Shown here one piece after another: positions 1,361 to 59,909 of a stretch of 64,000 bases of DNA. The stretch is from Candidatus Omnitrophota bacterium (GTDB taxonomy: Bacteria; Omnitrophota; Gorgyraeia; Gygaellales; Profunditerraquicolaceae): positions 7,903 to 71,902 of the forward strand of contig JAUSED010000003.1 in assembly GCA_030650425.1 (NCBI GenBank), given 5' to 3'. Each line of letters opens with the position of its first letter. Position 1 is the first letter of the stretch. Both the position numbers and the translations under genes were made by a program. Under the pieces are notes generated by a model that did no database searches, was not told the origin of the DNA, and saw only the letters and a program-made list of their open reading frames with translations.

Positions 1361-1465
1361 CGAAACTGTTTCCAATCCGTGAAGGAAACTGTTTCCAAGT
1401 CAATCGGGAAACTGTTTCCGCTTTAGGTCGGAAACAGTTTCCCGATTAGAATGGAAACAGTTTCT
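1361..1465. repeat. REP array 1: five units of the 13-nt palindrome GGAAAC-N-GTTTCC, starting at 1361, 1384, 1407, 1430 and 1453.
   Basis: Read directly: cgaaactgtttcc / ggaaactgtttcc x2 / ggaaacagtttcc / ggaaacagtttct, with an exact 23-nt period. Linkers are aatccgtgaa, aagtcaatcg, gctttaggtc and cgattagaat. Confidence 0.9.
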
Positions 1466-5107: not shown

Positions 5108-5137
5108 GAAGCAAAAGAGACATACCGCAATTGTAGT

Positions 5138-5242
5138 AGGGGACACTTTCCAACCTCTGCAGAAAGGGACACTTTCCGTCAGGGCCTAACTAGAACTTCA
5201 AAAGGAAAATGTCCCTTTCTGACGCAAAGGAAAGTGTCCCCT
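5138..5242. repeat. Family-2 palindromic element as a nested double copy. Layout is A(5138-5151) A(5165-5177) loop A'(5204-5216) A'(5229-5242), with A = GGGGACACTTTCC.
   Basis: Read directly. The same stems and loop (gtcagggcctaactagaacttcaaaa) recur at 34171-34225 and, with the loop inverted, at 59843-59898. Confidence 0.85.
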
Positions 5243-5254
5243 AGCATTGAGAAA

Positions 5255-7560: not shown

Positions 7561-10678
<3,118 letters not shown>

Positions 10679-10679
10679 T

Positions 10680-10784
10680 GGAAACTGTTTCCGGTCCAAA
10701 GCGGAAACAGTTTCCGTTTCAATCGGGAAACAGTTTCCCGATTAGCTTGGAAACAGTTTCCTTCACGAATTGGAAACAGTTTCC
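10680..10784. repeat. REP array 3: five units starting at 10680, 10703, 10726, 10749 and 10772. It begins 2 nt after the pilB/gspE stop.
   Basis: 23-nt phasing. Unit 3 plus its arms forms the 26-nt palindrome tcaatcGGGAAACAGTTTCCcgatta. Confidence 0.9.
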
Positions 10785-10811
10785 ACTATGCTATGGCGGG
10801 GAGAATAGATT

Positions 10812-12047
10812 ATGAAATTTTTATACAAGGCTAAAAAGAGCTTAAACGAGATTGCTGAAGGAATCATTGAGAAAGATAGTATTGAGCAGGCTATCGAGGA
10901 ACTGCAGGCAAAAGGCCTTACCCCGATTTCTATCGAACCGCAAAGCCCAATTGTTTCTCCCGGAGCCCCTAGCGCTAAAGTCGTCAAGAAGAACAACCTA
11001 AGGTTTACCTCCGGAAAATGGGGGCTAAAACAACTGAGCCTTTTTACCCAGAAGTTATACAACTTAATCAATACCCGCGTTGAGCTGCTTAACGCGCTGC
11101 GGCTCTTAGAAAAAAATTGCGAGAACCAGACGGAAAAAATCCTTCTCGGAGAGATCATTAAAAATATTAAGGATGGTATGTCTTTTTCCGAATGCCTGAA
11201 CTGCTATCCTAAATATTTCCCCGAGCTTTACGTGCATATAATACACACCGGAGAGTCAACGGGGAAATTAAAGGATGCCCTTCTTCAACTGTTGGATTAT
11301 CTGCGCCGGCTTGAAGATTTGAAGCTGAAAGTAAAACAGGCGCTGGCCTATCCTATATTTATGACCGTAGTCGGCATAGGCACGATAGGCGTAATGCTCA
11401 CCTTTGTTTTACCGCGGCTTGCCGGGATGTTTGACGATTTTCACGCCCAGCTTCCTATGCCCACGCTTATCCTGCTGAATACCGCGAATTTCATCAAGCA
11501 GTATTGGTTTTTTATAATTATATTTTTTGCCCTGTTGATTTCCGCGTTAAGATTCCGGCTTCAGGGAAAAGAAAGTTTATTCGGACGCCTGAAATACCAT
11601 ATTCCCATAGCCAAGGGGATTATTTATAAACAGTCGGTAGCAAATTTCTCAAGGAGTATATCGCTGCTGCTAAAAAGCGGAGTCACTTTAATGGCCGCGC
11701 TTGGCGACGCCGCGTTTGTGATTGGAAATCCGGTTTACATCCAGCAGTTGGGAGAGGTGCGCAAGGATATAGCCGGAGGCGTTACTTTCTCTGATTCGCT
11801 GGCTAAATTCAAGATCTTTCCGGATTTTTTTGTGCAGATGATCCGCGTAGGTGAAGAGGGAGGGAGGCTGGATCAGGTCCTTTCGGATATAGCGGAATCT
11901 TACGATAACGAGATTGAAGCTGACCTGAAGACGATCAGTTCCCTGATCGAGCCGGCGATCATCCTGATTTTAGGTTCGGTGATCGGCAGTATGGTTATTG
12001 CTATGCTTTTGCCTATCTTTAACATGAGCAGCCTGTTCGGAACTTAA
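10812..12047 (+). CDS. Type IV pilus / T2SS inner-membrane platform protein (PilC/GspF family).
   Basis: Duplicated GspF domain architecture with 3 TM segments, typical length of 411 aa, and position after the ATPase. Confidence 0.85.
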   Translation: MKFLYKAKKSLNEIAEGIIEKDSIEQAIEELQAKGLTPISIEPQSPIVSPGAPSAKVVKKNNLRFTSGKWGLKQLSLFTQKLYNLINTRVELLNALRLLEKNCENQTEKILLGEIIKNIKDGMSFSECLNCYPKYFPELYVHIIHTGESTGKLKDALLQLLDYLRRLEDLKLKVKQALAYPIFMTVVGIGTIGVMLTFVLPRLAGMFDDFHAQLPMPTLILLNTANFIKQYWFFIIIFFALLISALRFRLQGKESLFGRLKYHIPIAKGIIYKQSVANFSRSISLLLKSGVTLMAALGDAAFVIGNPVYIQQLGEVRKDIAGGVTFSDSLAKFKIFPDFFVQMIRVGEEGGRLDQVLSDIAESYDNEIEADLKTISSLIEPAIILILGSVIGSMVIAMLLPIFNMSSLFGT

Positions 12048-12053
12048 ATAATA

Positions 12054-13427
12054 ATGAAAACCAAGGTAATCATTGAATTATCAGAGCGTTGGCTTAAGGT
12101 CGCGGTTGGCCGTAGGCTAGCCGTAGAGGCGGTAACCAGCAGCGACCCGGCGAGCTTAGCCGGTTCCATCAGCGCGATCCTGAAACAGAACAGGTGCGGG
12201 AAGGATGTGGAAGTCCTTGTAGTCTTATCCCGCAACAAGATCACTGTCCGGCGCGTAGACCTGCCTTCGCAAGACCCCAAAGAAATAGAGCAGATGCTTG
12301 GGCTCTATCTTATCCGTCAGATTCCTTATCGCAAAGAAGAGGTTTTCTGGGCCTACCAGAATTTAGGCTTTGACGGAATAAGTAACAGCCACATACTGCT
12401 GGCTATCGCGTTAAAGAATATGTTCAAGGATATTGTTAATTCATTCCTCCCTCTGAATTTGCTCCCCGAATCTATTCTAATGAGTTCGCAAGGGTTGATC
12501 CACTATATAAACGACGCGGTCAAGGAAAAAAGTATTTTACAGGCGCCCTATTTAGTCCTGGATATAGATGCTAATTACAGTGAGTTGATCCTAGTGAGCA
12601 AGCAGAAATTAAATTCCAGCGTAGTCATCGCGCAAGGGGTAGAGCAGCTCAAGAATGATCAGGAAAAAGAGAGGTTTATCGTTGAGCTTAAACAAGCCTT
12701 GGTCGCCTTGAACAGCGAAGCTCCTGACGCCCGGGTTGAAAGATTATTCTTAAGCGGCGCCTCTGAAGAACACTTGGTTCTGGTCGAGGGAGCCTTGGCC
12801 AGAGATACCAGCATCAAAGCGCAGTATGTATCTAACAAGGATTATGATAATTTCGGTTCGGGCCGGCCTAAAGATGTTTCCATGTCAGCGGTGCTGGGAT
12901 TTGCCTCTCAGGTAGCTAAGGATGACATAAAGTTTATCCTTCCCGAGCTGCAGATAAAGAAAGAGATGCAAGCCAAGGCCCGGCAGCTGATGATTTTAGG
13001 GGTAAGCCTTGTCTATATATTGATCATGCTGGTAGCGATTGCCCTGGTAAGGCTGGCGCAGAAACAATCTTATGCCACTGACCTTAAGGCTAAAGTAAAG
13101 AGTTTGTCCAAGAATACGCAGGAGCTGGAGGATATCGTCAATAAACTCAAAGTAGCCAAACAGTATGTCGACCCCAAGGCCTCGGCGCTTACGGCGCTTT
13201 ATGAGCTTACCCGGCTTTGCCCCGAGGGTATAACGATTACCAACTTTAACTGGGAGTGGCAGAAGAGCTTTTCTTTTAGAGGCTACGCGCAGCAGATACC
13301 GGATATTTTGGCTTTTACCAATACCTTAGGTAATTCCGAATATTTTAAAGGCGCGCAAAACCGTTATACCCGCAGGCGGAATGTCAAAGATAAAGAAATA
13401 GTTGATTTTGAGATTGTGGTAAAATGA
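12054..13427 (+). CDS. PilM-like actin-fold protein fused to a PilN-like TM and periplasmic segment.
   Basis: N-terminal ~300 aa cytoplasmic domain, an internal TM helix LMILGVSLVYILIMLVAIALV, and a C-terminal periplasmic coiled coil. Confidence 0.55.
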   Translation: MKTKVIIELSERWLKVAVGRRLAVEAVTSSDPASLAGSISAILKQNRCGKDVEVLVVLSRNKITVRRVDLPSQDPKEIEQMLGLYLIRQIPYRKEEVFWAYQNLGFDGISNSHILLAIALKNMFKDIVNSFLPLNLLPESILMSSQGLIHYINDAVKEKSILQAPYLVLDIDANYSELILVSKQKLNSSVVIAQGVEQLKNDQEKERFIVELKQALVALNSEAPDARVERLFLSGASEEHLVLVEGALARDTSIKAQYVSNKDYDNFGSGRPKDVSMSAVLGFASQVAKDDIKFILPELQIKKEMQAKARQLMILGVSLVYILIMLVAIALVRLAQKQSYATDLKAKVKSLSKNTQELEDIVNKLKVAKQYVDPKASALTALYELTRLCPEGITITNFNWEWQKSFSFRGYAQQIPDILAFTNTLGNSEYFKGAQNRYTRRRNVKDKEIVDFEIVVK

Positions 13428-13954
13428 TAAAATTAAATAATAAAGAGAAGATATTAGCCGCAGCAGTAGGTTTAATCATGGCCCTTTTTATGCTTAAAAC
13501 CTTCGTCTTCGGGCCGATCTATGAAAAAATCTCCGGCTATGATCAGGAGATCGAGCAGTCGAAGATGGCCATCCGTAAATTTATGGCCTTTGAACATAAC
13601 CGGCCCGAGATACTTAAAGCGCAGAAAAAGATCGAAGGATATTCGAGCCTTAAGGGTTCTGACGAAGATAAAAGCGCGATGGTGATGAGCAAGGTTGAGG
13701 CGCTTGGCCGCAACGCTAAGCTGCAGATTTCAGATATGAGCCCGGCCGGTTCCGCCAAGATAAAGGGAGGAGCGACGATTTACCGGATACAGTTACGCGG
13801 AGAGGCCCAGATGAAAAATATTTTGGATTTTATGTCGGAGGTTGAAAATGCCAATACCCTCTTACAGATTGAGAAGATAACCTTGGCGATTAAAGATGAA
13901 TCGAGCAACGTGTTGAAGATGGAAGTGACTGTGCTGGGGGTGTCATTTTCATAA
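13424..13954 (+). CDS. PilO/GspM-like bitopic pilus assembly protein.
   Basis: N-terminal TM helix plus a periplasmic domain. Start overlaps the previous stop (ATGA). Call rests on context. Confidence 0.45.
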   Translation: MIKLNNKEKILAAAVGLIMALFMLKTFVFGPIYEKISGYDQEIEQSKMAIRKFMAFEHNRPEILKAQKKIEGYSSLKGSDEDKSAMVMSKVEALGRNAKLQISDMSPAGSAKIKGGATIYRIQLRGEAQMKNILDFMSEVENANTLLQIEKITLAIKDESSNVLKMEVTVLGVSFS

Positions 13955-13966
13955 CTAACCGCTAAC

Positions 13967-14041
13967 CGAAACTGTTTCCAATTTGTGAGGGAAACTGTTT
14001 CCATTCCAAAGCGGAAACTGTTTCCGAGTCAATCGGGAAAC
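13967..14041. repeat. REP array 4: three units at 13967, 13990 and 14013, plus a degenerate fourth at 14036.
   Basis: 23-nt phasing. Linkers are aatttgtgag, attccaaagc and gagtcaatcg. Confidence 0.85.
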
Positions 14042-14061
14042 GGGGCATAAGGAGGAGATCG

Positions 14062-14457
14062 ATGAAAAGAGGGTTTACCTTAATCGAATTGATGCTCGTC
14101 GTGATTATTATCGGCGTTCTGTCGGCAATGGTCGTGCCGCGGCTTGCCGGGCGCTCGGAGCAGGCGCGCGCGCAGGCGGCCAAGACAGATATTAATTCCA
14201 GCATTCCTTTAGCGCTTGACCTCTATGAAATGGATATGGGTAAGTATCCGGAGAGCCTTGATTATTTGAAGACCAGGCCGGCAGACGGGGACAGCTGGCG
14301 CGGCCCGTATTTGAAAAAAAAGCCGCTTGACCCTTGGGGAAAATCATATATTTACAAGGCTCCGGGTGAGCATAATCAGGATGGGTATGATCTTTCTTCC
14401 TCAGGCCCTGATGGCCAGCCGGCCACAGCGGATGATATTACGAACTGGAGCGAGTAG
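14062..14457 (+). CDS. Major pseudopilin (GspG/PulG-like) with a prepilin N-terminal methylation motif.
   Basis: N-terminus MKRGFTLIELMLVVIIIGVLSAMVVP, and a C-terminal WRGPYLKKKPLDPWGKSYIY typical of GspG. Confidence 0.85.
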   Translation: MKRGFTLIELMLVVIIIGVLSAMVVPRLAGRSEQARAQAAKTDINSSIPLALDLYEMDMGKYPESLDYLKTRPADGDSWRGPYLKKKPLDPWGKSYIYKAPGEHNQDGYDLSSSGPDGQPATADDITNWSE

Positions 14458-14458
14458 C

Positions 14459-14863
14459 TTGAAAGGTTTCACTTTGGTCGAGGTGATGATCAGCGTGGCT
14501 ATCCTCGGGATCGGCCTTTCGATCGTCGCTAATTCGTATTTGGTCTGCCTGCGGGGGATCAATGCCAGCCAGAATAATATTCAGGCGCAGCTTCTGGCAA
14601 AAGCAAAACTGGATGAGCTGGAAGCCTTAAGTATTACGCGCAACGGGCTTACCTCTTTTTCCGAGCAGAATGTTATGCGATCATCCGGCAGGGATTATAA
14701 TTACAACCTGAAGATTACAGAGATAGCCAGCCCTGAATATATCGCTAAGCACTTTCTGCAAGCCTGTTTGAGCTATAGCTGGCAGGAGCAGAATGCCTCT
14801 AAAAGCGTTGCCTTTTCCACCTATTTCCCCAAACATGAAGAAGAAAAGCCTAAAAGCATTTAG
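14459..14863 (+). CDS. Minor pseudopilin (GspH/I-like).
   Basis: Prepilin motif KGFTLVEVMISVAILGIGLS. A TTG start at 14459 is needed to include the cleavage motif; the track start 14327 lies inside the previous gene. Confidence 0.65.
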   Translation: MKGFTLVEVMISVAILGIGLSIVANSYLVCLRGINASQNNIQAQLLAKAKLDELEALSITRNGLTSFSEQNVMRSSGRDYNYNLKITEIASPEYIAKHFLQACLSYSWQEQNASKSVAFSTYFPKHEEEKPKSI

Positions 14864-15404
14864 CCTGGTAGAGCTGCTTATCGCCTTATCCATCTTCGCC
14901 GTGGTGAGTATCGCCATTTATTCCACTTTTAATTCGGGCTTTAAGGTATTACACAAAGTTAAAGACATTGACCTTGCCCAGCAAAGTTTTATCTTTAAAG
15001 TAGAGAGGCTTGCTAAAGAGTTAAGGCAGGCAACTCATTTACGTAAACTTTTGTTGACCGGCGCTAAAACAAGCGTAAGTTTTGGGGGGATTGTTGATGA
15101 TCAGCCCTCCCGCGTAACTTATTATTTCGATAAATCATCCCAGAATTTTATACGGCAAGCCGATCATCTGGCGGATATTATTACTGACGAGAAAAAGATT
15201 GACCCGGAGTTGAAATCCAAAGGGGCAGTTTTCTTAAAAAAGGTTAACGAAATTAAATTTGCGTACTTATACCGTGATTTGAAGAAAAACATTTACGCCT
15301 GGGCCGAGGAATGGAAAGAGGATTTTCTTCCCTTGGCAATACAGGTAACTATCTCTACCGATAAACAAAACTATGTTACGACCATCTTCTTGCCCACAGC
15401 CTAA
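14835..15404 (+). CDS. Minor pseudopilin (GspJ-like).
   Basis: N-terminus KAFSLVELLIALSIFAVVSIAIYS. ATG 14835 is preferred over the track start 14793. Confidence 0.6.
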   Translation: MKKKSLKAFSLVELLIALSIFAVVSIAIYSTFNSGFKVLHKVKDIDLAQQSFIFKVERLAKELRQATHLRKLLLTGAKTSVSFGGIVDDQPSRVTYYFDKSSQNFIRQADHLADIITDEKKIDPELKSKGAVFLKKVNEIKFAYLYRDLKKNIYAWAEEWKEDFLPLAIQVTISTDKQNYVTTIFLPTA

Positions 15405-16290
15405 TCAAGGAAGCATACTGATCATCTGTCTTTGGACAGTGGTGATGCTTGCCATTTTAGGTATGGGGCTCACCGGGCTGGTATTTCAGGAAATAAAATC
15501 ATCCGTCATTATTTCCCGGTTGTACGGTTCTCTGCCTACGGCGGAAGCAGCCTTAAAATCGGTCTTATACGAAAGAGTTGAGGACCTGACTCCAACATAC
15601 GATACAATGGAGGAGTTAACGAGGGAGAATAACGTTGCTCTTTGCGGCACCAACTCCTATAAATATTATTTTACAGACAAGAAAGTGAATAAAGATTCCG
15701 TGGAGATTATCGACGAGAGCGCGCTAATCAACCTTAATACCGCCTCGTTAGATGTACTAAAGAGGCTTCCGGGAATGGATGAAGATTTAGCGGACAAGCT
15801 GGCTAATTTGGGGTTAAGGCCCTACATCTCCATTAACGAAGTTCTATTGGCAGAGGGGATGACGGTTGATAAATTCCGGCTTTTTAAAGATATGGTAACT
15901 GTTTACGGTAACGGTAAAGTAAATATTAATACCGTGAGCAAGGCTGTATTGGTCTGTCTTGGTTTAGACGAGGAATTAGCCGATAAGATCCTGCGTTTTC
16001 GCAAAGAGCATAAAATCGATCCGCCGAAAGATGATCAAGGCAATCCTATTATTAAAGAAGATGAATACGGCTTTTCTAGTGTTGCTTCGATGATCGCTGA
16101 GATGAATAGTTCTCTGGGGTTAAGCCTGCGTCAGGAACAGGATCTTATATCCGCGCAGAGTTATCTCTCCGTAAAATCAGAATACCTCAGGCTAAACATA
16201 ATCCCTCAAATCAATCACAAAGACGGCACCCGTTATTCAGCGGTCGTTCAACCTTCGACAAAAAAAATTCTTTCTTGGAAAGAGTATTAG
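15373..16290 (+). CDS. GspK-like pseudopilin with an internal helix-hairpin-helix segment.
   Basis: N-terminal hydrophobic segment ILIICLWTVVMLAILGMGLTG, and an HhH-like LNTASLDVLKRLPGM...LADKLANLG as in GspK/ComEA. Confidence 0.55.
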   Translation: MLRPSSCPQPNQGSILIICLWTVVMLAILGMGLTGLVFQEIKSSVIISRLYGSLPTAEAALKSVLYERVEDLTPTYDTMEELTRENNVALCGTNSYKYYFTDKKVNKDSVEIIDESALINLNTASLDVLKRLPGMDEDLADKLANLGLRPYISINEVLLAEGMTVDKFRLFKDMVTVYGNGKVNINTVSKAVLVCLGLDEELADKILRFRKEHKIDPPKDDQGNPIIKEDEYGFSSVASMIAEMNSSLGLSLRQEQDLISAQSYLSVKSEYLRLNIIPQINHKDGTRYSAVVQPSTKKILSWKEY

Positions 16291-16779: not shown

Positions 16780-18399
16780 ATGATTGAACGATTACGAATT
16801 CCCATGCCACTGCGAAAATCGCCTAAAGTTACTGCTGGAGGCAATTTTCTTGATATTGAAGTTATTTGTTGGGTTATGCTCTTGCTAACTTTGTCAGTGG
16901 TGTTGATCGTGAGGCTGAGGCTGTTGGGGATTCCCCTTGAGCGGGATGAGGGAGAATACGCCTATCTCGGCCAGCTTTTATTGCAGGGCGTGCCTCCTTA
17001 TAAGCTCGCTTATAGTATGAAGCTTCCCGGCGCGTGCGCTGTTTACGCTTTGTTGATGGCGGTATTCGGGGAGACGATCAAGGGCATTCATTTAGGGTTC
17101 TTAATTATTAATTTCGCTTCAATTGCCTTAATATTTTTTATAGCTAAAAGATTATCCGGCACTCTAGCCGGAATTATTTCCGCAGCTGCTTACGCTGTTT
17201 TATCTGTTAGTCAATCAGTCCTCGGAGTCCAGGCGCATGCCACGCATTTAATAGTCTTGGCAGCCCTCTGCGGATCAATCTTACTTTTAAAAGCAGTTGA
17301 AAATGATCGAAAGAGTTTAATTTTCTTGAGCGGTTTATTTTTTGGGCTGGCCTTTCTGATGAAACAACAGGGAATATTTTTTATCCCCTTCGGCATCTTT
17401 TATCTTTCCTGGGCTTGCAAGAAACGATCTGTTTTAGCGGCTAATTTGATGGTTTATAGCTTGGGAGCGGCGTTACCTTTTGCACTAACCTGTTTAGTTC
17501 TTTTTTTTGCCGGCGTTTTCGATAAATTTTGGTTTTGGACGTTTCAATATGCATCCGGGTATTCTTCCGGCGCTCACGTTTATTTGGCGTTTCAAATTTT
17601 CAAAGCCCAATTGCTGGGGGCGATCAAACCATTTAAGCCGGTATGGTATATCGCGGCCGCGGGTTCTTTGTGCCTTTTTATCGACGCTAAAGTTAGAAAG
17701 AATATCTTTTTTGTCGCGGCTCTGTTGATTAGTTCTTTTCTGGCTCTCTGCCCGGGATTTATCTTCCGTGAGCATTATTTTGTGATGATATTGCCGGTAG
17801 TTTCTATATTATGCGGTATGTGCGTAAATTCGGCTGTTGAATTTATCAAGAATCGAAAATATCCGGCAGCTTTTCAATCCTTTCCGGTGATCATCTTTAC
17901 CGTTATTTTGGCGCTTTCTGTTTTTCAACAGAGGGATTACTTTTTTACAGCAACTCCGGAGAGGGTATCGCGGAAGGCTTACGCTGAAAATCCTTTTATC
18001 GAGTCCATCAGTATAGGAAATTACCTAAAAGCGCATTCATCTCCGGAGGATACGATCGCGGTATTGGGCTCAGAGCCCCAGATATATTTTTACGCGCGCA
18101 GGCGTTCGGCAACCGGCTATATTTATGCCTATCCTTTAATGGAAAACCAGCCTTATGCCTTAAAGATGCAGGAGGAGATGATTAGAGAAATCGAATTTCA
18201 AAAACCCCTCTACTTAGTTTTTGTCAAGGTTAACACTTCTTGGCTGCGGCACGGAGGTTCAGAAAATTTTATCTTCAGATGGGCCCAAAATTATATTACC
18301 GAGCATTACGATATTGCCGGGGCAACCTTTATTTCTAAGCAACCTTTTTCCTCTGTATTGGTCTATAAGCGAAAGGCGGAAACAGTTTCCAATTTGTGA
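16780..18399 (+). CDS. Polytopic membrane glycosyltransferase of the GT39/GT83 family (PMT/ArnT-like).
   Basis: About 12 TM helices in the N-terminal two-thirds and a soluble C-terminal domain. The last six codons and the stop (ETVSNL*) are supplied by REP array 5. Confidence 0.55.
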   Translation: MIERLRIPMPLRKSPKVTAGGNFLDIEVICWVMLLLTLSVVLIVRLRLLGIPLERDEGEYAYLGQLLLQGVPPYKLAYSMKLPGACAVYALLMAVFGETIKGIHLGFLIINFASIALIFFIAKRLSGTLAGIISAAAYAVLSVSQSVLGVQAHATHLIVLAALCGSILLLKAVENDRKSLIFLSGLFFGLAFLMKQQGIFFIPFGIFYLSWACKKRSVLAANLMVYSLGAALPFALTCLVLFFAGVFDKFWFWTFQYASGYSSGAHVYLAFQIFKAQLLGAIKPFKPVWYIAAAGSLCLFIDAKVRKNIFFVAALLISSFLALCPGFIFREHYFVMILPVVSILCGMCVNSAVEFIKNRKYPAAFQSFPVIIFTVILALSVFQQRDYFFTATPERVSRKAYAENPFIESISIGNYLKAHSSPEDTIAVLGSEPQIYFYARRRSATGYIYAYPLMENQPYALKMQEEMIREIEFQKPLYLVFVKVNTSWLRHGGSENFIFRWAQNYITEHYDIAGATFISKQPFSSVLVYKRKAETVSNL

Positions 18400-18459
18400 A
18401 GGAAACTGTTTCCATTCCGTGAAGGAAACTGTTTCCAGCCCAATTGGGAAACTGTCCCC
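18378..18459. repeat. REP array 5: three units at 18378, 18401 and 18424, plus a degenerate unit GGAAACTGTCCCC at 18447-18459 abutting the RAYT stop.
   Basis: 23-nt phasing. Linkers are aatttgtgaa, attccgtgaa and agcccaattg. Confidence 0.9.
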
Positions 18460-18941
18460 TAGAGCACGAGTTTATCTAGTAAAGCAAAATTATTTAAATA
18501 GGCTAGATTCCTTTCTGGATAACTGCTGAATTCATACTCTTTCATATTTTTGACTAAATTAGCCCGGATTGGATTCTGTTCTACATAAGCAATACAGTCT
18601 ATTAGGTATTGATCTCTAGCTATTACCTTTGCCTTGAATCTACCCTGCCACAAATGGCCTACCTTATTATATTTTTTGTTATAGTAAGCAGTGTATGATC
18701 GATGTAGGCCTTGCATAAAACTAGGAAGTTTACTCGGGTTTTTAGGCTCACCTATAATATGAATATGGTTTGGCATTAGGCAGTAACCGTACAGAAGCAG
18801 GGAGTGTTTTCTTTTGTAAAGCCTTAATTGGTGAAGATAAAATTCAAAATCTTCTTTACTTTTGAATATTAGTTGTTTTTGATTGCCTCTCGCATAGATA
18901 TGATAGCAGGCATTATTGATAAGTAATCGTGTTTTAGCCAT
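18459..18941 (-). CDS. REP-associated tyrosine transposase (RAYT, IS200/IS605-like Y1 HUH family).
   Basis: HUH motif CLMPNHIHII, catalytic Tyr region IAYVEQNPIRANLV, and GHLWQGRFK. At about 160 aa it is the typical size. Start set at ATG 18941, which has an AAGGAGG RBS 5 nt upstream on the minus strand. Confidence 0.8.
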   Translation of the reverse strand: MAKTRLLINNACYHIYARGNQKQLIFKSKEDFEFYLHQLRLYKRKHSLLLYGYCLMPNHIHIIGEPKNPSKLPSFMQGLHRSYTAYYNKKYNKVGHLWQGRFKAKVIARDQYLIDCIAYVEQNPIRANLVKNMKEYEFSSYPERNLAYLNNFALLDKLVL

Positions 18942-18954
18942 TTTTCCTCCTTTT

Positions 18955-19036
18955 AAGTCCACTTTCCCGATTGGCTCGGAAACAGTTTCCGCTTTGAGAT
19001 GGAAACAGTTTCCCGATTAGGATGGAAACTGTTTCC
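18955..19036. repeat. REP array 6: a degenerate unit at 18955 (gtccactttccc), then units at 18978, 19001 and 19024.
   Basis: 23-nt phasing. Linkers are cgattggctc, gctttgagat and cgattaggat. Confidence 0.9.
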
Positions 19037-20566: not shown

Positions 20567-20641
20567 ATTTACCTCCTCTAAGCTAATAGACGTAAGAAGG
20601 ATGTAAATCTAACGAAAATAATTGGATAGTTTTGACAAAAA

Positions 20642-20672
20642 AGGTGACAGCCACAAAATACGTGACTGTCAC
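20642..20672. repeat. Family-3 palindromic element ggtgacagCcac-aaaatac-gtgactgtcacc, flanked by an A-run and a T-run.
   Basis: Same architecture as the 54756-54796 element inside comEC. It sits between divergent gene starts. Confidence 0.6.
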
Positions 20673-20695
20673 CTTTTTCCGGAGATGAGAAAAGG

Positions 20696-22573: not shown

Positions 22574-22590
22574 TATAAAGTAAAATAAAG

Positions 22591-22695
22591 GAAACAGTTT
22601 CCAATCTGTGAAGGAAACTGTTTCCGGCTCAATCGGGAAACAGTTTCCGCTTTGGGTCGGAAACAGTTTCCGCTTTGAGATGGAAACAGTTTCCA
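22591..22695. repeat. REP array 7: five units at 22591, 22614, 22637, 22660 and 22683, between ldt and accA.
   Basis: 23-nt phasing. Linkers are aatctgtgaa, ggctcaatcg, gctttgggtc and gctttgagat. Confidence 0.9.
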
Positions 22696-24173: not shown

Positions 24174-24201
24174 GAAAAAGTGACTGTCACTTTTTCTTTT
24201 T
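24174..24201. terminator. Perfect palindrome GAAAAAGTGAC-A-GTCACTTTTTC followed by a T-run. Candidate bidirectional intrinsic terminator.
   Basis: 11-bp perfect stem read directly. It shares the GTGACNGTCAC core with the family-3 elements. Confidence 0.55.
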
Positions 24202-27398: not shown

Positions 27399-27475
27399 CG
27401 AAACTGTTTCCATCTCAATCGGGAAACAGTTTCCGAGCCAATCGGGAAACTGTTTCCGAGCCAATCGGGAAAGTG
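27399..27475. repeat. REP array 8: units at 27399, 27422 and 27445, plus a degenerate unit at 27468, between the KS alpha and KS beta genes.
   Basis: 23-nt phasing. Linkers are atctcaatcg, gagccaatcg and gagccaatcg. Confidence 0.9.
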
Positions 27476-27496
27476 GGCATAGGAGAGGGAGGCTGT

Positions 27497-31386: not shown

Positions 31387-31827
31387 ATGGGACATACCTG
31401 TAATTCAGTTATAATTAACGCGCCCTATGATTTAGTTTTTGATATTTCCAATGATATCCCCCGCTGGACGGAATTATTCGGGAGTGAATACAAAAAAGCA
31501 GAAGTGGTGAAGAAGGAAGCAAATAAAATTACCTTCCGCCTGACTGATGACGAAGGTAAGTCTTGGCAGTCATGGAGATTACTTTTTAAGCAGAATAATT
31601 TTACTTACGCCGAAAGAGAAGAGCCGAAATTCCCTTTTCAATACATGAAAATCATCTGGCTTTATACGCTTAAACCGGAAGGGGTGGAATTAACCTGGAT
31701 CCAGCATTTTGCAATGGATGCAAAAGCCAAATTCAACGATGAGCAGGTCGAAGGTTTTATTAATAAGCATTCTAAGGATAATCTTTTAATTTTTAAGCGG
31801 GTAATCGAGCAGGCAGCAGGTAAGTAA
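31387..31827 (+). CDS. SRPBCC / Bet v1-fold polyketide cyclase-dehydratase-like protein.
   Basis: At 146 aa the pattern is typical of polyketide_cyc2 aromatase/cyclases (INAPYDLVFDISNDIPRWTELF ...). Confidence 0.55.
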   Translation: MGHTCNSVIINAPYDLVFDISNDIPRWTELFGSEYKKAEVVKKEANKITFRLTDDEGKSWQSWRLLFKQNNFTYAEREEPKFPFQYMKIIWLYTLKPEGVELTWIQHFAMDAKAKFNDEQVEGFINKHSKDNLLIFKRVIEQAAGK

Positions 31828-33268: not shown

Positions 33269-34197
33269 TCATTGACGCGCATAGCCATTGGCTGCCGGAA
33301 GAAATAATTTCCAATGCCCATTTTTTTTCCAAAAGCTGGGGTGAGATCGAGCATCAGCTTGAGGCAATGGATGAAGCAGGGATTGATCAAGCCGTTCTCT
33401 CATATCCTACTTCCGACGCCCATCTTAAGTTAGGGAGTATTTCACTGGTTGCCCGGATTTTTAATGATAATGTAGCCAAAATCCTCAAAAAATATCCGGA
33501 CAGATTTATTGGCGCGGCAGTCCTGCCAGTGGACAACGGGAAGGATATGCAAGAGGAGGCTAAGCGGGCTATAGAAAAACTAGGGTTTAAGGCCTTCTCT
33601 TTGGCGAGCAGCTACAATGCTGTATATCTGGACGATCAGATCTTCTTACCTATATATAAGCTGGCGCAGGATGAGCATATACCGATTTTTGTGCATTCTC
33701 AGATTGTTAAGCCCATTGGCATCGAGCGCGTAAACGACCCGCTGCTTACCCCGGTAATCGAATATGTTTTTGATATGACGGTGTGTATTGGTAAGCTGCT
33801 GATGTCGGATATTTTACGCGATTATAAAACGAAATTTATCTTTGCATCTTTTGGCGGGGTAATTCCGTTTATAGCGCATAGGTTTGACGCGACCTACCAG
33901 ATGCTGCGGGGGATTAATTTTGTCAAAGACCTGCAAGCAATGCCTACAGAATTATTGAAGTATATTTATGTGGATACCAGCGGAGATAAGACCAAGGCGA
34001 ATTTTCAGGCAGCCTTGGAGTTACTCGGGCCAAAACATATTCTCTGGGGAAGCGATTGGCCAGCCAAAAAAGATATCGCCGCAGGAATGCAGGCGGTTAA
34101 AAATTTAGATATATCTAACGAAGACAAGCATAATATTTTAGGCGGTAATTTAGAACAGTTCTTGAACAGTAGGGGACATTTTCCGTCAGGGCTCTAA
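33265..34197 (+). CDS. Amidohydrolase-2 family enzyme (ACMSD-type metal-dependent decarboxylase/hydrolase).
   Basis: N-terminal MIIDAHSHWLPEE and a TIM-barrel hydrolase pattern. The last ~8 codons and the stop are encoded within a family-2 repeat element. Confidence 0.65.
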   Translation: MIIDAHSHWLPEEIISNAHFFSKSWGEIEHQLEAMDEAGIDQAVLSYPTSDAHLKLGSISLVARIFNDNVAKILKKYPDRFIGAAVLPVDNGKDMQEEAKRAIEKLGFKAFSLASSYNAVYLDDQIFLPIYKLAQDEHIPIFVHSQIVKPIGIERVNDPLLTPVIEYVFDMTVCIGKLLMSDILRDYKTKFIFASFGGVIPFIAHRFDATYQMLRGINFVKDLQAMPTELLKYIYVDTSGDKTKANFQAALELLGPKHILWGSDWPAKKDIAAGMQAVKNLDISNEDKHNILGGNLEQFLNSRGHFPSGL

Positions 34198-34225
34198 GAG
34201 GAGCCTCAAAAGGAAAGTGTCCTCT
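34171..34225. repeat. Family-2 palindromic element copy B: AGGGGACATTTTCC - loop - GGAAAGTGTCCTCT.
   Basis: Diverged copy. The loop is gtcagggctctaagaggagcctcaaaa versus gtcagggcctaactagaacttcaaaa at 5178. Confidence 0.75.
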
Positions 34226-34261
34226 ACTGACTCAAACGGAAATTCATTAAGAGAAAACATT

Positions 34262-42584: not shown

Positions 42585-43664
42585 ATGAGGAAAATTAATA
42601 AGATTCTATTGTGGATAATTGCCGTTTTTTTTACCCTTTTTATTATTGCCAATATCGCGGTTTCCTTATTTGCCAAACAAATTATAGTTAGGCAAATCGA
42701 AGAGAACCTTAAAGTTCCCGTAACCCTCGGCAGCATAAACGTCGGCCTGCCTCTTTCCATAAAACTAAGTAAACTTAGCGTCGGGGATTTATTTAAAGCC
42801 GATGAAGTTTCTGTTTCTCCTAACATCCTTGGATTTTTCGCGGGTAAGCTTGTGCTTAGTTCGGTGGACTTAGTTAATCCGTTGGTCAATCTTGAACGGT
42901 CAGCCGACGGAAGGCTCAACCTACCCAAATTAGATAATAATAAAGGAAAGCCACCCGCGATTTATCTGACTAGCCTGAGCGTAAGAAACGGAAAGCTTAT
43001 TTTTATCGATAGAAAGATAGATCCTTCCGGTTATAAAATTATTCTGGCAAATTTAAACAGCCACATTTCTAAAGTCATGCTTCCTCCGGCTTCGCTTAAG
43101 GTTAATTTTAAGCTGTCGGCGGATTTGTTGGCTCCAGATAGCCGGAAATTGGGAAGTACAGCGTTATCCGGCTGGCTGGATTTCGGGCCTAAGGATATGG
43201 ATGGGAACCTCATCATCAAAGACTTGGACCTGACTTATTTTTCTCCATACTACGGGAATTTTATCTCCGATAAGAAACTCCTTTCAGCCAAGCTCAATAT
43301 CAATACTAACCTTAAGGCCGAAAATAATAACCTAAAAATCTTGACTGATTTCAGGCTCTCTAATTTAACATATAGCCAAGAGGCACCTGTTGAAGGAACG
43401 CTGCCGGAGATAAATTTCGCGAAGAATGCCTTGGAGTTTTTTACCGATTCCAAAGGTAACCTGAATCTGGAATTTGAGATTAATACCCGATTGGACCATC
43501 CCAATGTCACTGTCGAGCAGCTTAAGAAGGTGATCTTAAAGGCGGCCAGCAAAAATCTCTCTAACCAATCTCCGGAAGAGCTGATGAAGAAAGTTAATGC
43601 TAATATCGACCAATTCAAGGCGATAGGCAAGACTTTGAAGAATATATTTAAAGGGAAAGAGTAA
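42585..43664 (+). CDS. Hypothetical membrane-anchored protein (AsmA/DUF748-like?).
   Basis: N-terminal TM helix followed by a soluble beta-rich region. The family call is weak. Confidence 0.4.
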   Translation: MRKINKILLWIIAVFFTLFIIANIAVSLFAKQIIVRQIEENLKVPVTLGSINVGLPLSIKLSKLSVGDLFKADEVSVSPNILGFFAGKLVLSSVDLVNPLVNLERSADGRLNLPKLDNNKGKPPAIYLTSLSVRNGKLIFIDRKIDPSGYKIILANLNSHISKVMLPPASLKVNFKLSADLLAPDSRKLGSTALSGWLDFGPKDMDGNLIIKDLDLTYFSPYYGNFISDKKLLSAKLNINTNLKAENNNLKILTDFRLSNLTYSQEAPVEGTLPEINFAKNALEFFTDSKGNLNLEFEINTRLDHPNVTVEQLKKVILKAASKNLSNQSPEELMKKVNANIDQFKAIGKTLKNIFKGKE

Positions 43665-44320
43665 TGCCAGCGAATAAATCTAAAAGCCTGCAAGATATCG
43701 AAGAAAAAATGGGATCTCTGGACGTAAATTCTTTACGTTATCATGTGCTGGAGAGCGCCAGGAATTTTAAAACCTCCTGGATTGAATTAGGACGCTCGCT
43801 TTATTCCGTCTGGAAAGATAAGATGTATAAGGAATGGGGTTTTGGGACGTTTGACGCCTACACCGCCAAAGAAATCGGGATCAAGAAGCCCACGGCGATG
43901 AAGCTACTGCGCTCATATTATTTTCTGGAAAAAGAAGAACCGGCATATTTGAAGGATGGTTATACTGAATCAGCTGATACGGCCAAGCTTCCCAGCTACG
44001 AAGCCGTGGATTTATTGCGCAAGGCAAAAGATAAGAAAACTCTGGATTCCCAAGATTATTCAAAATTGAAAAAGGAAATTTTTGAGGATGGTAAGGATGT
44101 GCAAACTGTAAAGCGGGATTTGACTTCTCTAGTCAGGCAGAGAGAAGAACTTGAACCTGAAGAGGCGTATAAAAAAAGACGGACAGCCATCTTAAGGAGA
44201 TTTATCGGCAGCCTTAAGGCCTTAAAGCAGGAGGCAGAAGTATCCAAATTGCTTCCGGCCCAGCTGATCAACGAAGCGCAGGAATTGATCCGCAAGATAG
44301 AGGAGCAAATTAAATTGTGA
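43664..44320 (+). CDS. Hypothetical protein.
   Basis: 218-aa ORF with no recognised motif. Its stop lies 1 nt before REP array 9. Confidence 0.45.
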   Translation: MPANKSKSLQDIEEKMGSLDVNSLRYHVLESARNFKTSWIELGRSLYSVWKDKMYKEWGFGTFDAYTAKEIGIKKPTAMKLLRSYYFLEKEEPAYLKDGYTESADTAKLPSYEAVDLLRKAKDKKTLDSQDYSKLKKEIFEDGKDVQTVKRDLTSLVRQREELEPEEAYKKRRTAILRRFIGSLKALKQEAEVSKLLPAQLINEAQELIRKIEEQIKL

Positions 44321-44321
44321 G

Positions 44322-44380
44322 GGAAACTGTTTCCAACTTGTGAAGGAAACTGTTTCCGGATCAATCGGGAAACAGTTTCC
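44322..44380. repeat. REP array 9: three units at 44322, 44345 and 44368.
   Basis: 23-nt phasing. Linkers are aacttgtgaa and ggatcaatcg. This is the last family-1 array in the window. Confidence 0.9.
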
Positions 44381-44387
44381 ATAGTAT

Positions 44388-50207: not shown

Positions 50208-50290
50208 TGCCGAAGGAGGGAGTTGAACCCACATGGGCTTGCGCCCAACAGCTTTTGAGGCTGCCGCGTATGCCATTTCGCCACTTCGGC
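50208..50290 (-). tRNA. tRNA-Leu (anticodon CAA), class II with a long variable arm.
   Basis: Reverse complement is GCCGAAGTGGCGAAATGGCATACGCGGCAGCCTCAAAAGCTGTTGGGCGCAAGCCCATGTGGGTTCAACTCCCTCCTTCGGCA. The 7-bp acceptor stem and anticodon loop CUCAAAA read directly; the 5' half is near-identical to E. coli tRNA-Leu. Confidence 0.9.
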
Positions 50291-50358: not shown

Positions 50359-50434
50359 GGGGCTGTAGCTCAGCTGGGAGAGCACTTGCATGGCATGCAA
50401 GGGGTCAGGAGTTCAATCCTCCTCAGCTCCACCA
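50359..50434 (+). tRNA. tRNA-Ala (anticodon GGC), CCA encoded.
   Basis: GGGGCTGTAGCTCAGCTGGGAGAGC...anticodon loop AUGGCAU...TTCAATCC...CAGCTCCACCA. The G3:U70 Ala identity pair is present. Confidence 0.9.
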
Positions 50435-59835: not shown

Positions 59836-59842
59836 TTAAGCA

Positions 59843-59898
59843 GTAGGGGACACTTTCCTTTTGAAGTTCTAGTTAGAACCCTGACGGAAAGTGTCCCC
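59843..59898. repeat. Family-2 palindromic element copy C: AGGGGACACTTTCC - loop - GGAAAGTGTCCCCT, with the loop inverted relative to the 5165-5216 copy.
   Basis: The loop ttttgaagttctagttagaaccctgac is the reverse complement of the loop at 5178-5203, allowing 2 mismatches. Confidence 0.85.
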
Positions 59899-59909
59899 TT
59901 ACCCGAAAG

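What the first reader, a model, noticed from the sequence alone, without database searches (positions are those of the whole stretch)
18378..19036. The RAYT-type tyrosine transposase is bracketed by two REP arrays and by inverted terminal half-sites, linking the repeats to a dedicated enzyme
The 160-aa minus-strand ORF has the Y1 HUH transposase hallmarks (HUH in NHIHII, Tyr in IAYVEQNPIRANLV, GHLWQGRFK). RAYTs are known to sit between inverted REPs and to be the proposed agents of REP dissemination. Here array 5 abuts the gene stop and array 6 abuts its start region. The innermost units on each side are degenerate and form an imperfect inverted pair: cccaattgGGAAACTGTCCCC at 18439-18459, and the reverse complement of 18955-18975, gccaatcgGGAAAGTGGAC. 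This gives a causal hypothesis for the nine arrays: a single-copy domesticated or active RAYT mobilising two related hairpin families.
Basis: partly seen in the sequence, partly recalled or inferred. Interest (0 to 1): 0.8.

Follow-up and report, generated by a model that had tools for sequence, protein, structure and literature searches.

The report
RAYT transposase flanked by REP arrays
A single, well-conserved REP-associated tyrosine transposase gene in an uncultivated Omnitrophota bacterium sits between inverted arrays of the short palindromic repeat that also fills many gaps between genes nearby; this is an ordinary kind of system, in a phylum and with a 23-base modular layout not described before as far as I could find.

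Summary
ORF 18459-18941(-) encodes a 160-aa Y1 HUH enzyme. It matches Pfam Y1_Tnp and the NCBIfam REP-associated tyrosine transposase model (80.5 bits, only just above the cut-off of 80). A confident AlphaFold model fits E. coli TnpA-REP (4ER8) best. The gene is bracketed by inverted arrays of the 13-bp palindrome GGAAACWGTTTCC at a strict 23-bp period, and each array ends in a degenerate terminal unit next to the gene. The same palindrome forms seven more arrays in the window: 35 copies against 0.06 expected by chance.

Homologues across Omnitrophota carry flanking inverted repeats (55 of 68 loci against 2 of 340 controls). Their arms differ from locus to locus. The 23-bp period and an oriented loop motif (YAATCG/YAAAGC) are kept. 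Nine relatives keep comM upstream. dN/dS is about 0.05. Relatives have empty sites where the window has arrays, and the reverse.

This is a vertically inherited RAYT/REPtron with dispersed cognate REPs, not an IS200/IS605 insertion sequence. Copy number in the whole genome and catalytic activity remain untested. The A-centred and T-centred forms of the palindrome are one unit in two orientations. A separate GTAG-footed hairpin family (three sites) matches the RAYT-proximal terminal unit. Verdict: a new member of a known kind with an unusual modular layout. Interest is moderate.

The parts
18459..18941 (-). RAYT / TnpA-REP-type Y1 HUH enzyme, 160 aa (HUH = H59-I-H61; catalytic Tyr = Y119 in YVEQNP); stop TAG at 18459-18461
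   Evidence: Pfam Y1_Tnp at E=4.6e-11. NCBIfam REP_Tyr_transpos at 80.5 bits against a cut-off of 80. 4ER8 is the best PDB hit by sequence and by fold, with TM 0.75 for a model of pLDDT 90.7. dN/dS is about 0.05 against the 87%-identical relative.
18946..18950 (-). Shine-Dalgarno GGAGG, 4 nt upstream of ATG 18941
   Evidence: Read directly from the sequence. The same spacing is seen in L090 and L002.
18957..18967 (-). 5' terminal (gene-proximal) unit GGAAAGTGGAC, preceded by the loop motif CAATCG
   Evidence: Conserved as CAATCG-GGAAAS(K)GGG in L001-L005 and L090.
18968..19036 (.). Array 6: three perfect 13-bp palindromes (18978, 19001, 19024) with 10-nt linkers CGATTGGCTC, GCTTTGAGAT and CGATTAGGAT. 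It fills the comM-RAYT intergenic space.
18447..18459 (-). 3' terminal unit. On the RAYT strand it reads (C)TAG-GGGACAGTTTCC and overlaps the stop codon by one base. It contains GGGGACAG, which matches the GGGGWSAS motif.
   Evidence: L090 has TAG-GGGACACTTTCC, identical to the arm of the second repeat family.
18378..18446 (.). Array 5: three perfect palindromes (18378, 18401, 18424) with linkers AATTTGTGAA, ATTCCGTGAA and AGCCCAATTG. The TGA stop of the convergent PMT_2 glycosyltransferase (16780-18399) lies in the first linker.
1361..1465 (.). Dispersed array 1, 105 bp: 5 palindromes and 4 linkers (2 forward, then 2 reverse)
   Evidence: ssDNA fold of -36.8 kcal/mol, z=-10.4.
7563..7667 (.). 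Dispersed array 2, 105 bp, between atpG and atpD. An orthologous array is present in L082.
10680..10784 (.). Dispersed array 3, 105 bp, between the T2SS gspE-like and gspF-like genes
13967..14048 (+). Array 4: three forward units plus the terminal unit GGAAACGGGGC. It is a solo copy of the RAYT 5' flank architecture, directly upstream of a pseudopilin gene.
   Evidence: (I9: 82% complementary to 18953-19035)
22590..22694 (.). Dispersed array 7, 105 bp, between ykuD and accA. The site is empty in L002, L003 and L092.
27399..27480 (+). Array 8: three forward units plus the terminal unit GGAAAGTGGGC, between two ketoacyl-synthase genes. The site is empty in L087.
   Evidence: (I5: 81% complementary to 18945-19035)
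44312..44380 (.). Array 9: a leading linker plus three palindromes. The TGA stop of ORF 43664-44320 lies in the leading linker.
5136..5243 (.). Second repeat family (F2), a nested copy: GTAG-GGGACACTTTCC ... GGAAAGTGTCCCC-TAG
34167..34229 (.). F2 hairpin CAGTAG-GGGACATTTTCC, 27-nt loop, GGAAAGTGTCC-TCTACTG (GTAG/CTAC 'double foot')
   Evidence: ssDNA fold of -18 kcal/mol, z=-5.3.
59841..59899 (.). F2 hairpin, in inverted orientation relative to 34171-34229
   Evidence: (I24: 86% complementary)

Best explanation
This is a REPtron. A vertically inherited, functional RAYT (a class-2 TnpA-REP-type Y1 HUH endonuclease) sits between inverted copies of its cognate REP modules. RAYT-less copies of those modules are scattered through intergenic sites of the same chromosome.

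**Shown**
- What the enzyme is.
- The inverted modular flanks.
- The dispersed copies.
- The same flank architecture in homologous loci, with arms that differ from locus to locus.
- Gain and loss of arrays between relatives.

**Inferred mechanism**
- On transiently single-stranded DNA, two neighbouring 13-nt palindromes pair across the 10-nt linker. This gives a 13-bp stem with a 10-nt loop.
- Strand and orientation are marked by the loop motif (CAATCG, CAAAGC or GTGAA) and by a central T.T (top strand) or A.A (bottom strand) mismatch.
- The enzyme binds this hairpin. It cleaves with Tyr119 and the HUH-bound metal, then rejoins the DNA, as shown in vitro for E. coli TnpA-REP. Modules are excised and inserted in this way.
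- Slippage and recombination add or remove 23-bp units.

Because the arrays sit inside operons, they are transcribed and fold strongly as RNA. A secondary host-level effect on mRNA is therefore plausible but untested.
For: **Enzyme**
- Pfam, NCBIfam and PDB sequence matches.
- The model (pLDDT 90.7) is closest to 4ER8: TM 0.75, E=9.7e-9, against about 0.54 for IS608 and ISDra2 TnpA.
- The HUH histidines, the Tyr and WQ are invariant in 90 homologues.
- The NHIH / WQ / YVEQNP motifs fit class 2 (Y---NP) of PMC6006769.

**Repeats**
- 35 palindromes in 9 arrays against 0.06 expected.
- Every 16-mer with three or more copies in the window lies in these arrays, and the most frequent ones are in the RAYT flanks.
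- Arrays 4 and 8 copy the RAYT 5' flank, terminal unit included.

**Family level**
- Inverted repeats flank homologues in 55 of 68 loci, against 2 of 340 control positions.
- The arm sequences differ between loci.
- Flank autocorrelation peaks at 23 bp: 0.314 against 0.252.
- The loop motif is enriched and points toward the gene: 0.57 and 0.75 per flank, against about 0.15.
- Two paralogues in one genome carry different repeats.
- Solo or doublet copies of the flank repeat occur elsewhere in many loci.

**Inheritance**
- comM lies upstream in L001-5, L016-17, L091 and L092. RAYT identity falls in step with ComM identity.
- dN 0.066 and dS 1.42 against L090.

**Mobility**
- The ykuD-accA and kas-kas junctions are empty in relatives.
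- L087 has an array where the window has none.

**Structure**
- ssDNA folds have z of -8 to -10 and use P-linker-P stems.
- The centre base tracks linker orientation, p=4e-5.
Against: - No biochemical data exist for this clade.
- The family-1 palindrome lacks the 5' GT[AG]G foot of canonical REPs.
- The cleavage and target site could not be read from the array ends.
- Copy number in the whole genome is unknown, because the source contig beyond the window could not be fetched.
- The NCBIfam score passes its cut-off by only 0.5 bit.
- Perfect tandem periodicity and adjacent identical linkers (array 2, array 8, L090) could come from slippage alone.
- The orthologous array in L082 kept perfect palindromes while the adjoining coding DNA diverged by 22%. 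Host selection on the repeats would explain that as well as continued RAYT activity does.
Confidence: 0.8

Rival explanations
1. The gene is an active, self-mobilising IS200/IS605-type insertion sequence. The flanking repeats are simply its own ends.
For: It belongs to Pfam Y1_Tnp, named 'Transposase IS200 like'. The gene is tightly bracketed by inverted repeats.
Against: - One copy in 64 kb, and the identical protein is listed on only one contig.
- comM is conserved upstream across relatives with RAYT identity of 57-81%.
- There is no tnpB. The neighbours are comM and PMT_2.
- The Tyr motif is Y---NP, not Y---Q.
- The fold is closer to TnpA-REP than to IS608 or ISDra2 TnpA.
- The dispersed copies lack the gene.
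- Strong purifying selection alongside saturated dS indicates a long residence.
Confidence: 0.03
2. The arrays are host elements: protein-binding operator or nucleoid-site arrays on duplex DNA, or RNA stabiliser or attenuator structures inside operons. They spread and are kept without the RAYT, and the RAYT locus is just one more place where they accumulate.
For: - Perfect 13-bp dyads at a 23-bp period (about two helical turns) look like sites for a dimeric duplex-DNA binder.
- The arrays sit between co-transcribed genes: atpG/atpD, gspE/gspF, kas/kas, ykuD/accA.
- They fold as RNA at -52 to -62 kcal/mol, z about -8.
- The palindromes stayed perfect in an orthologous array although the adjoining coding DNA is only 78% identical.
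Against: - Across 68 homologous loci the repeats that flank the gene differ in sequence from locus to locus. They keep their period, loop motif and orientation relative to the gene. Chance accumulation does not explain that.
- Paralogues in one genome have different flanks.
- Arrays 4 and 8 carry the gene-proximal terminal unit.
- A host role and RAYT-driven spread do not exclude each other.
Confidence: 0.08
3. The RAYT is domesticated for another single-strand-DNA task and no longer moves the repeats. Present-day variation in the arrays comes only from replication slippage, recombination and gene conversion among relic copies.
For: - Adjacent identical linkers in array 2 (CTCACAAGTT twice), array 8 (GAGCCAATCG twice) and L090.
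- Strict tandem periodicity.
- Vertical inheritance and strong purifying selection.
- PMC5581495 argues that RAYTs behave like housekeeping genes.
Against: - New arrays appear at previously empty operon junctions. That needs insertion, not only slippage.
- Four arrays have the same 105-bp length and the same two-forward, two-reverse grammar, which suggests a defined mobile unit.
Confidence: 0.09

Closest known systems
E. coli TnpA-REP (RAYT) REPtron and BIME clusters (PDB 4ER8; PMC3479197, PMC8266576)
   Same: - Y1 HUH enzyme of similar size (160 against 165 aa); best match by sequence and by fold.
- Single gene flanked by inverted REPs.
- REPs dispersed in intergenic sites, often inside operons and in clusters with typed linkers.
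- Recognition expected on folded single-stranded DNA, using unpaired features.
   Different: - Only about 17% identity.
- The family-1 unit is a perfect 13-bp palindrome with no GTAG foot.
- Hairpins share arms, so arrays have a strict 23-bp period.
- The candidate recognition features are a 10-nt loop motif and a central T.T mismatch, not a bulge plus GTAG.
- Several E. coli GTAG-contacting positions are not conserved in the alignment.
Pseudomonas REPIN-RAYT systems (PMC3116915, PMC5581495)
   Same: - Single-copy, vertically inherited RAYT.
- The most abundant short oligomers of the region lie in its flanks.
- The non-autonomous derivatives are dyad-symmetric (here the 105-bp arrays with two forward and two reverse units).
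   Different: A REPIN is two REPs separated by a spacer. Here an array is a chain of 3 to 5 identical palindromes with three linker classes. Abundance is known only for 64 kb.
TnpA-Y1 subclass 2.4 with 'double-foot' REPs (Quentin et al. 2018, PMC6006769)
   Same: - Key motifs NH[IFV]H, WQ and Y---NP.
- The second family in the window has a 5' GTAG, a 3' CTAC and G-C pairs at the stem base, as described for subclass 2.4.
   Different: - The Tyr motif is YVEQNP rather than YIxNNP.
- Length is 160 aa against a median of 194.
- No REP is inserted in the gene.
- Subclass membership was not tested against reference sequences.
TIRYT / TIRtrons (Di Nocera et al. 2013, PMC3733652)
   Same: The gene is flanked by terminal inverted repeats that carry GGGGWSAS (here GGGGACAG at the 3' terminal unit). 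Moderately abundant solo, dimeric or grouped TIR copies occur.
   Different: Most TIRYTs fall in subclass 2.1, with a median length of about 238 aa and a C-terminal HTH-like domain. This protein has the core only.
IS200/IS605 TnpA (IS608, ISDra2)
   Same: HUH/Tyr fold and the presumed chemistry of single-strand hairpin recognition.
   Different: It is not multicopy, has no tnpB, and has inverted flanks instead of distinct subterminal left-end and right-end hairpins. It has a Y---NP motif and lower structural similarity (TM about 0.54).

Membership tests
RAYT / TnpA-REP (class 2 TnpA-Y1) | Y1 HUH fold with an HUH motif and a single catalytic Tyr | tested here: met
   PF01797 at E=4.6e-11. H59, H61 and Y119 are invariant in 90 homologues. 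The model has pLDDT 90.7, and its best PDB match is 4ER8 at TM 0.75.
RAYT / TnpA-REP (class 2 TnpA-Y1) | Class-2 signature Y---NP, as opposed to Y---Q in IS200 (PMC6006769) | tested here: met
   The motif is YVEQNP, and N123 and P124 are invariant.
RAYT / TnpA-REP (class 2 TnpA-Y1) | Scores above the curated NCBIfam equivalog cut-off (NF047646) | tested here: met
   80.5 bits against a cut-off of 80, so a marginal pass.
RAYT / TnpA-REP (class 2 TnpA-Y1) | Gene flanked by palindromic repeats in inverted orientation (REPtron) | tested here: met
   In homologues, 55 of 68 loci against 2 of 340 controls.
RAYT / TnpA-REP (class 2 TnpA-Y1) | Flanking sequence over-represented elsewhere in the genome, in intergenic space | tested here: met
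   There are 7 further arrays in 64 kb. All 16-mers with three or more copies lie in arrays. This was tested on the window only.
RAYT / TnpA-REP (class 2 TnpA-Y1) | Single or low copy per genome, with no near-identical duplicates | tested here: inconclusive
   One copy in the window. The identical protein is listed on one contig. Related genomes have at most two divergent paralogues among the loci fetched. The rest of the source genome could not be read.
RAYT / TnpA-REP (class 2 TnpA-Y1) | Predominantly vertical inheritance, with a conserved neighbourhood | tested here: met
   comM lies immediately upstream on the same strand in 9 relatives, and its identity tracks RAYT identity. L090, the closest relative, has a different upstream neighbour.
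RAYT / TnpA-REP (class 2 TnpA-Y1) | 5' GT[AG]G tetranucleotide at the foot of the REP hairpin | tested here: inconclusive
   The motif is absent from the family-1 palindrome arrays. It is present in the second family (GTAG-GGGACACTTTCC). The RAYT 3' terminal unit has CTAG.
RAYT / TnpA-REP (class 2 TnpA-Y1) | Strand-specific cleavage and rejoining of single-stranded cognate REP | not testable with these tools
   This needs purified protein and oligonucleotide assays.
IS200/IS605 insertion sequence | Multiple near-identical copies; distinct subterminal hairpins; often tnpB; Y---Q motif | tested here: not met
TIRYT (subclass 2.1) | TIRs carrying GGGGWSAS | tested here: met
   GGGGACAG is present in the 3' terminal unit.
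TIRYT (subclass 2.1) | Long protein (about 238 aa) with a C-terminal HTH-like domain | tested here: not met
   The protein is 160 aa, and Y1_Tnp is the only Pfam match.

The most novel reading that the evidence does not exclude
The mobile unit may be a single 23-nt module (half-palindrome, 10-nt loop, half-palindrome, centre base). The RAYT would insert it at the dyad centre of an existing palindrome. Each insertion would then recreate its own target, and arrays would grow one module at a time. That would make it the smallest self-targeting transposable unit known. It would explain the strict period, the module replacement seen between the window and L090 at the RAYT flank, and the three interchangeable loop classes.
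Probability: 0.15. Interest if true: 0.65.

Novelty: new member of a known kind. Interest (0 to 1): 0.4.

Why it matters
RAYT/REP systems have been characterised mainly in Proteobacteria and Cyanobacteria, and how REPs spread is still unresolved. This locus shows a conserved RAYT clade across the uncultivated phylum Omnitrophota. Two full-text searches found no paper that links RAYT or REP elements to that phylum.

Its repeats are unusually simple: a perfect 13-bp stem, a 10-nt loop with a conserved oriented motif, and one central mismatch that marks the strand. That gives a compact, easily synthesised substrate for testing what a TnpA-REP recognises and where it cuts.

There is also a practical point. 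These arrays sit inside core operons, and many homologues lie on very short contigs. That pattern would fit assemblies breaking at the repeats, but I did not test it.

Tried and rejected
1. Counting remote 11-mer matches to the RAYT flanks did not separate homologous loci from controls (142 against 181 clusters). Single chance hits dominate, so only extended clusters (25 bp or more) were informative.
2. A target-site idea (insertion 3' of AAAC, read from the outer ends of arrays) had only 3 of 42 ends in its favour, so I dropped it.
3. The first structure model, built from a 24-sequence alignment, was poor (pLDDT 61.5) and gave only weak fold matches. A 90-sequence alignment fixed this.
4. The source contig outside the window could not be fetched by exact-protein look-up. 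Genome-wide copy numbers are therefore unknown.
5. Rfam finds no known RNA family at the arrays, only two tRNAs elsewhere.
6. The promoter and terminator scan finds no sigma-70-like promoter on the RAYT strand and no intrinsic terminator. Co-transcription with comM is therefore likely but unproven.
7. A CGTC-tagged REP reading: the outer units of some relatives contain CGTC (for example AGACGTTT). The window's units do not, so I did not pursue it.
8. CRISPR-like or iteron-like readings of the 23-bp arrays were considered. They were set aside because the 'spacers' fall into three conserved, oriented classes, and because the arrays track the HUH gene across homologous loci.
Full report
**Observation.** ORF 18459-18962(-) is open. 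The real start is ATG 18941, which gives 160 aa: it is preceded by GGAGG at 18946-18950(-), and every homologue begins M-x-K-T-R. On the plus strand, 18378-18446 holds three perfect copies of the 13-bp palindrome GGAAACWGTTTCC at exactly 23-bp spacing. A degenerate unit, GGAAACTGTCCCC (18447-18459), follows, and its last base belongs to the TAG stop. On the other side, GTCCACTTTCC (18957-18967) is followed by three perfect copies up to 19036. The two gene-proximal units, together with their neighbouring CAATYG motifs, form the imperfect inverted pair that was reported. With one mismatch allowed, the palindrome occurs 35 times in nine arrays, against 0.06 expected from dinucleotide-preserving shuffles.

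**The protein.**
- It matches Pfam Y1_Tnp at E=4.6e-11.
- It matches the NCBIfam equivalog 'REP-associated tyrosine transposase', but only just: 80.5 bits against a cut-off of 80.
- Its only PDB sequence match is E. coli TnpA-REP, 4ER8.
- A first AlphaFold model from 24 sequences was poor. A model from 90 homologues reached pLDDT 90.7. Its best fold match is 4ER8 (TM 0.75, E=9.7e-9), ahead of IS608, ISDra2 and IS200 TnpA at TM about 0.5-0.55.
- H59, H61 (the HUH motif), Y119, W98, Q99, N123 and P124 are invariant in 90 homologues.
- In the scheme of Quentin et al. 2018 (PMC6006769), the motifs NHIH / WQ / YVEQNP place it in class 2 (Y---NP), which holds the TnpA-REP proteins. They do not place it with IS200 (Y---Q).
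- Against the 87%-identical relative L090, dN is 0.066 and dS is 1.42, so the gene is under strong purifying selection.

**Source and inheritance.** The identical protein is annotated in a Candidatus Omnitrophota MAG on a 359-kb contig. It is listed on one contig only. The word-indexed protein search returned 433 homologues at E<=1e-5, and the named ones are nearly all from Omnitrophota. The genome collection gave 574 matching stretches. The window holds a single copy. comM, a Mg-chelatase-like gene, lies immediately upstream on the same strand in the window and in L001-L005, L016, L017, L091 and L092. RAYT identity (81 to 57%) falls in step with ComM identity (66 to 50%). That is the pattern of vertical descent. 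L090, the closest relative, has a different upstream neighbour but the same downstream one. There is no tnpB. The neighbours are comM and a convergent PMT_2 glycosyltransferase, whose stop codon lies inside the first linker of array 5.

**Anatomy of the repeats.**
- The 10-bp linkers are not random. They fall into three oriented classes..GTGAA..CAATCG and ..CAAAGC, and their reverse complements.
- GGAAACAGTTTCC and GGAAACTGTTTCC are reverse complements. The centre base therefore reports orientation, and it tracks linker orientation (Fisher p=4e-5).
- Every array reads as forward units followed by reverse units.
- Four arrays (1361-1465, 7563-7667, 10680-10784 and 22590-22694) are each exactly 105 bp: five palindromes with two forward and two reverse linkers. 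That is a MITE- or REPIN-like dyad.
- Arrays 13967-14048 and 27399-27480 are three forward units plus a terminal unit (GGAAACGGGGC and GGAAAGTGGGC). They are solo copies of the RAYT 5' flank, 81-82% complementary to 18945-19035.
- As single-stranded DNA, neighbouring palindromes pair across the linker into 13-bp stems with 10-nt loops. The 105-nt arrays fold at about -30 to -37 kcal/mol, z of -8 to -10.
- In forward units both arms carry T at the centre. The stem therefore has a T.T mismatch on one strand and an A.A mismatch on the other. This is a strand-specific irregularity of the kind TnpA-REP and IS608 TnpA are known to read (PMC8266576).

**A second repeat family.** GTAG-GGGACACTTTCC, a loop of about 27 nt, then GGAAAGTGTCCCC-(C)TAC occurs at 5136-5243 (a nested copy), 34167-34229 and 59841-59899. 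It has the GTAG/CTAC 'double foot' and G-C stem base described for subclass 2.4 REPs. Its arm differs at one position from the RAYT 3' terminal unit (CTAG-GGGACAGTTTCC). It is identical to that unit in L090 (TAG-GGGACACTTTCC). The REPtron therefore contains family-1 modules on the outside and family-2-like arms next to the gene. This links both families to the enzyme. A second paralogue elsewhere in the genome could still be the true partner of family 2.

**Family-level evidence for the enzyme-repeat link.**
- In 68 homologous loci with both flanks available, the 5' flank aligns to the reverse complement of the 3' flank with a score of 30 or more in 55. Only 2 of 340 control positions reach that score.
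- The arm sequences differ between loci: GGAAACWGTTTCC in the closest relatives, GGACACTGTCC in L016 and L017, GGGACGGTTCT...AAAGTGTCCC in L043-L068, and a non-palindromic CACACCTGTCCC in direct 23-bp tandem in L063.
- Two features persist across these loci. One is a 23-bp period: flank autocorrelation is 0.314 at lag 23 against 0.252 in controls, with the closest relatives excluded. The other is the loop motif YAATCG/YAAAGC pointing toward the gene: 0.57 and 0.75 per flank, against about 0.15.
- Genomes with two paralogues have different flanks for each.
- In many loci the flank repeat recurs elsewhere as solo copies or inverted doublets.

**Evidence for gain and loss.**
- The ykuD-accA junction carries array 7 in the window. 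The two genes are 2-6 bp apart in L002, L003 and L092.
- The junction between the two ketoacyl-synthase genes carries array 8 in the window and nothing in L087.
- L087 has a five-unit array after the orthologue of 31387-31827, where the window has 15 bp.
- The atpG-atpD array is shared with L082. Its unit content differs, yet its palindromes are still perfect although the adjoining atpD is only 78% identical. So the repeats are either continually renewed or under selection.
- At the RAYT flank itself, the window and L090 differ by replacement of a whole module and by one extra unit.

**Context.** The arrays fill the gaps between co-directional genes of core operons: atpG/atpD, gspE/gspF, upstream of a pseudopilin gene, kas/kas and ykuD/accA. 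They must therefore be transcribed. As RNA, the 105-nt arrays fold at -52 to -62 kcal/mol, z about -8. A host-level effect on mRNA, as known for E. coli REPs, is plausible but untested. Rfam finds no known family there. No sigma-70-like promoter on the RAYT strand and no terminator was detected, so co-transcription with comM is likely.

**Comparison with what is known and verdict.** The system works like a REPtron/REPIN-RAYT system. It meets every defining feature that could be tested, with two exceptions. Genome-wide copy number could not be tested. The GT[AG]G foot is absent from family 1 and present in family 2. It is not an IS200/IS605 insertion sequence. It shares the GGGGWSAS terminal motif of the TIRYTs (PMC3733652) but lacks their long C-terminal domain. 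Two full-text searches found no paper connecting RAYT or REP elements with Omnitrophota. I file it as a new member of a known kind. Its distinctive trait is that REP hairpins share palindromic arms, which gives strictly 23-bp modular arrays. The mechanism (hairpin recognition on single-stranded DNA, then Tyr119/HUH cleavage and rejoining) is inferred by homology. The cleavage site and target could not be deduced.

Noticed in passing
window 20641-20675, 54758-54792, 24175-24195: A third palindromic intergenic repeat, AAGGTGACAGYCAC-N6-GTGACTGTCACCTT. There are two full copies and one half copy. It is unrelated in sequence to the arrays, and its function is unknown.
   Followed up: no
window 18397-18399 and 44318-44320: The stop codons of the PMT_2 glycosyltransferase and of ORF 43664-44320 lie inside array linkers of the ..TTGTGA class. 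The last few codons of both genes are therefore repeat-derived.
   Followed up: partly
window 7667-7677 and 44380-44390: atpD and an AMP-binding enzyme gene start 7 nt after the last palindrome, with no recognisable Shine-Dalgarno sequence. Arrays 4 and 8 and the RAYT flank instead end in a terminal unit followed by AGGAG within 2-4 nt.
   Followed up: no
L007-L010, L013, L027, L040, L051, L055, L059, L065: about 30-80 bp upstream of the RAYT homologue: A conserved promoter-like block, TTGTTAGAAAtt...ACGTCTATTAT...AGGAGGTGAT..ATG, precedes many of the more distant paralogues. It is absent from the comM-linked group that includes the window.
   Followed up: no
L074 5183-5494 and flanks: A truncated RAYT homologue (103 aa) flanked by a perfect 120-bp inverted repeat in a single-cell genome. 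This may be an assembly fold-back or a recent rearrangement.
   Followed up: no
L063 7446-7552 and RAYT flanks: In this relative the 23-bp modules have a non-palindromic core (CACACCTGTCCC). They form direct tandem arrays of five units. So the period is conserved even where the core has no dyad symmetry.
   Followed up: partly
window 9065-16290: A type II secretion / type IV pilus-like gene cluster (GspE, GspF, a pseudopilin with an N-methylation motif, and a T2SSK-like gene) carries two of the arrays.
   Followed up: partly
window 50208-50290(-) and 50359-50431(+): Two divergently oriented tRNA genes. These are the only Rfam matches in the window.
   Followed up: no
one search hit table: Many close homologues sit on contigs of only 0.5-2.5 kb. 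That would fit assemblies breaking at the flanking repeat arrays, but it was not tested.
   Followed up: no
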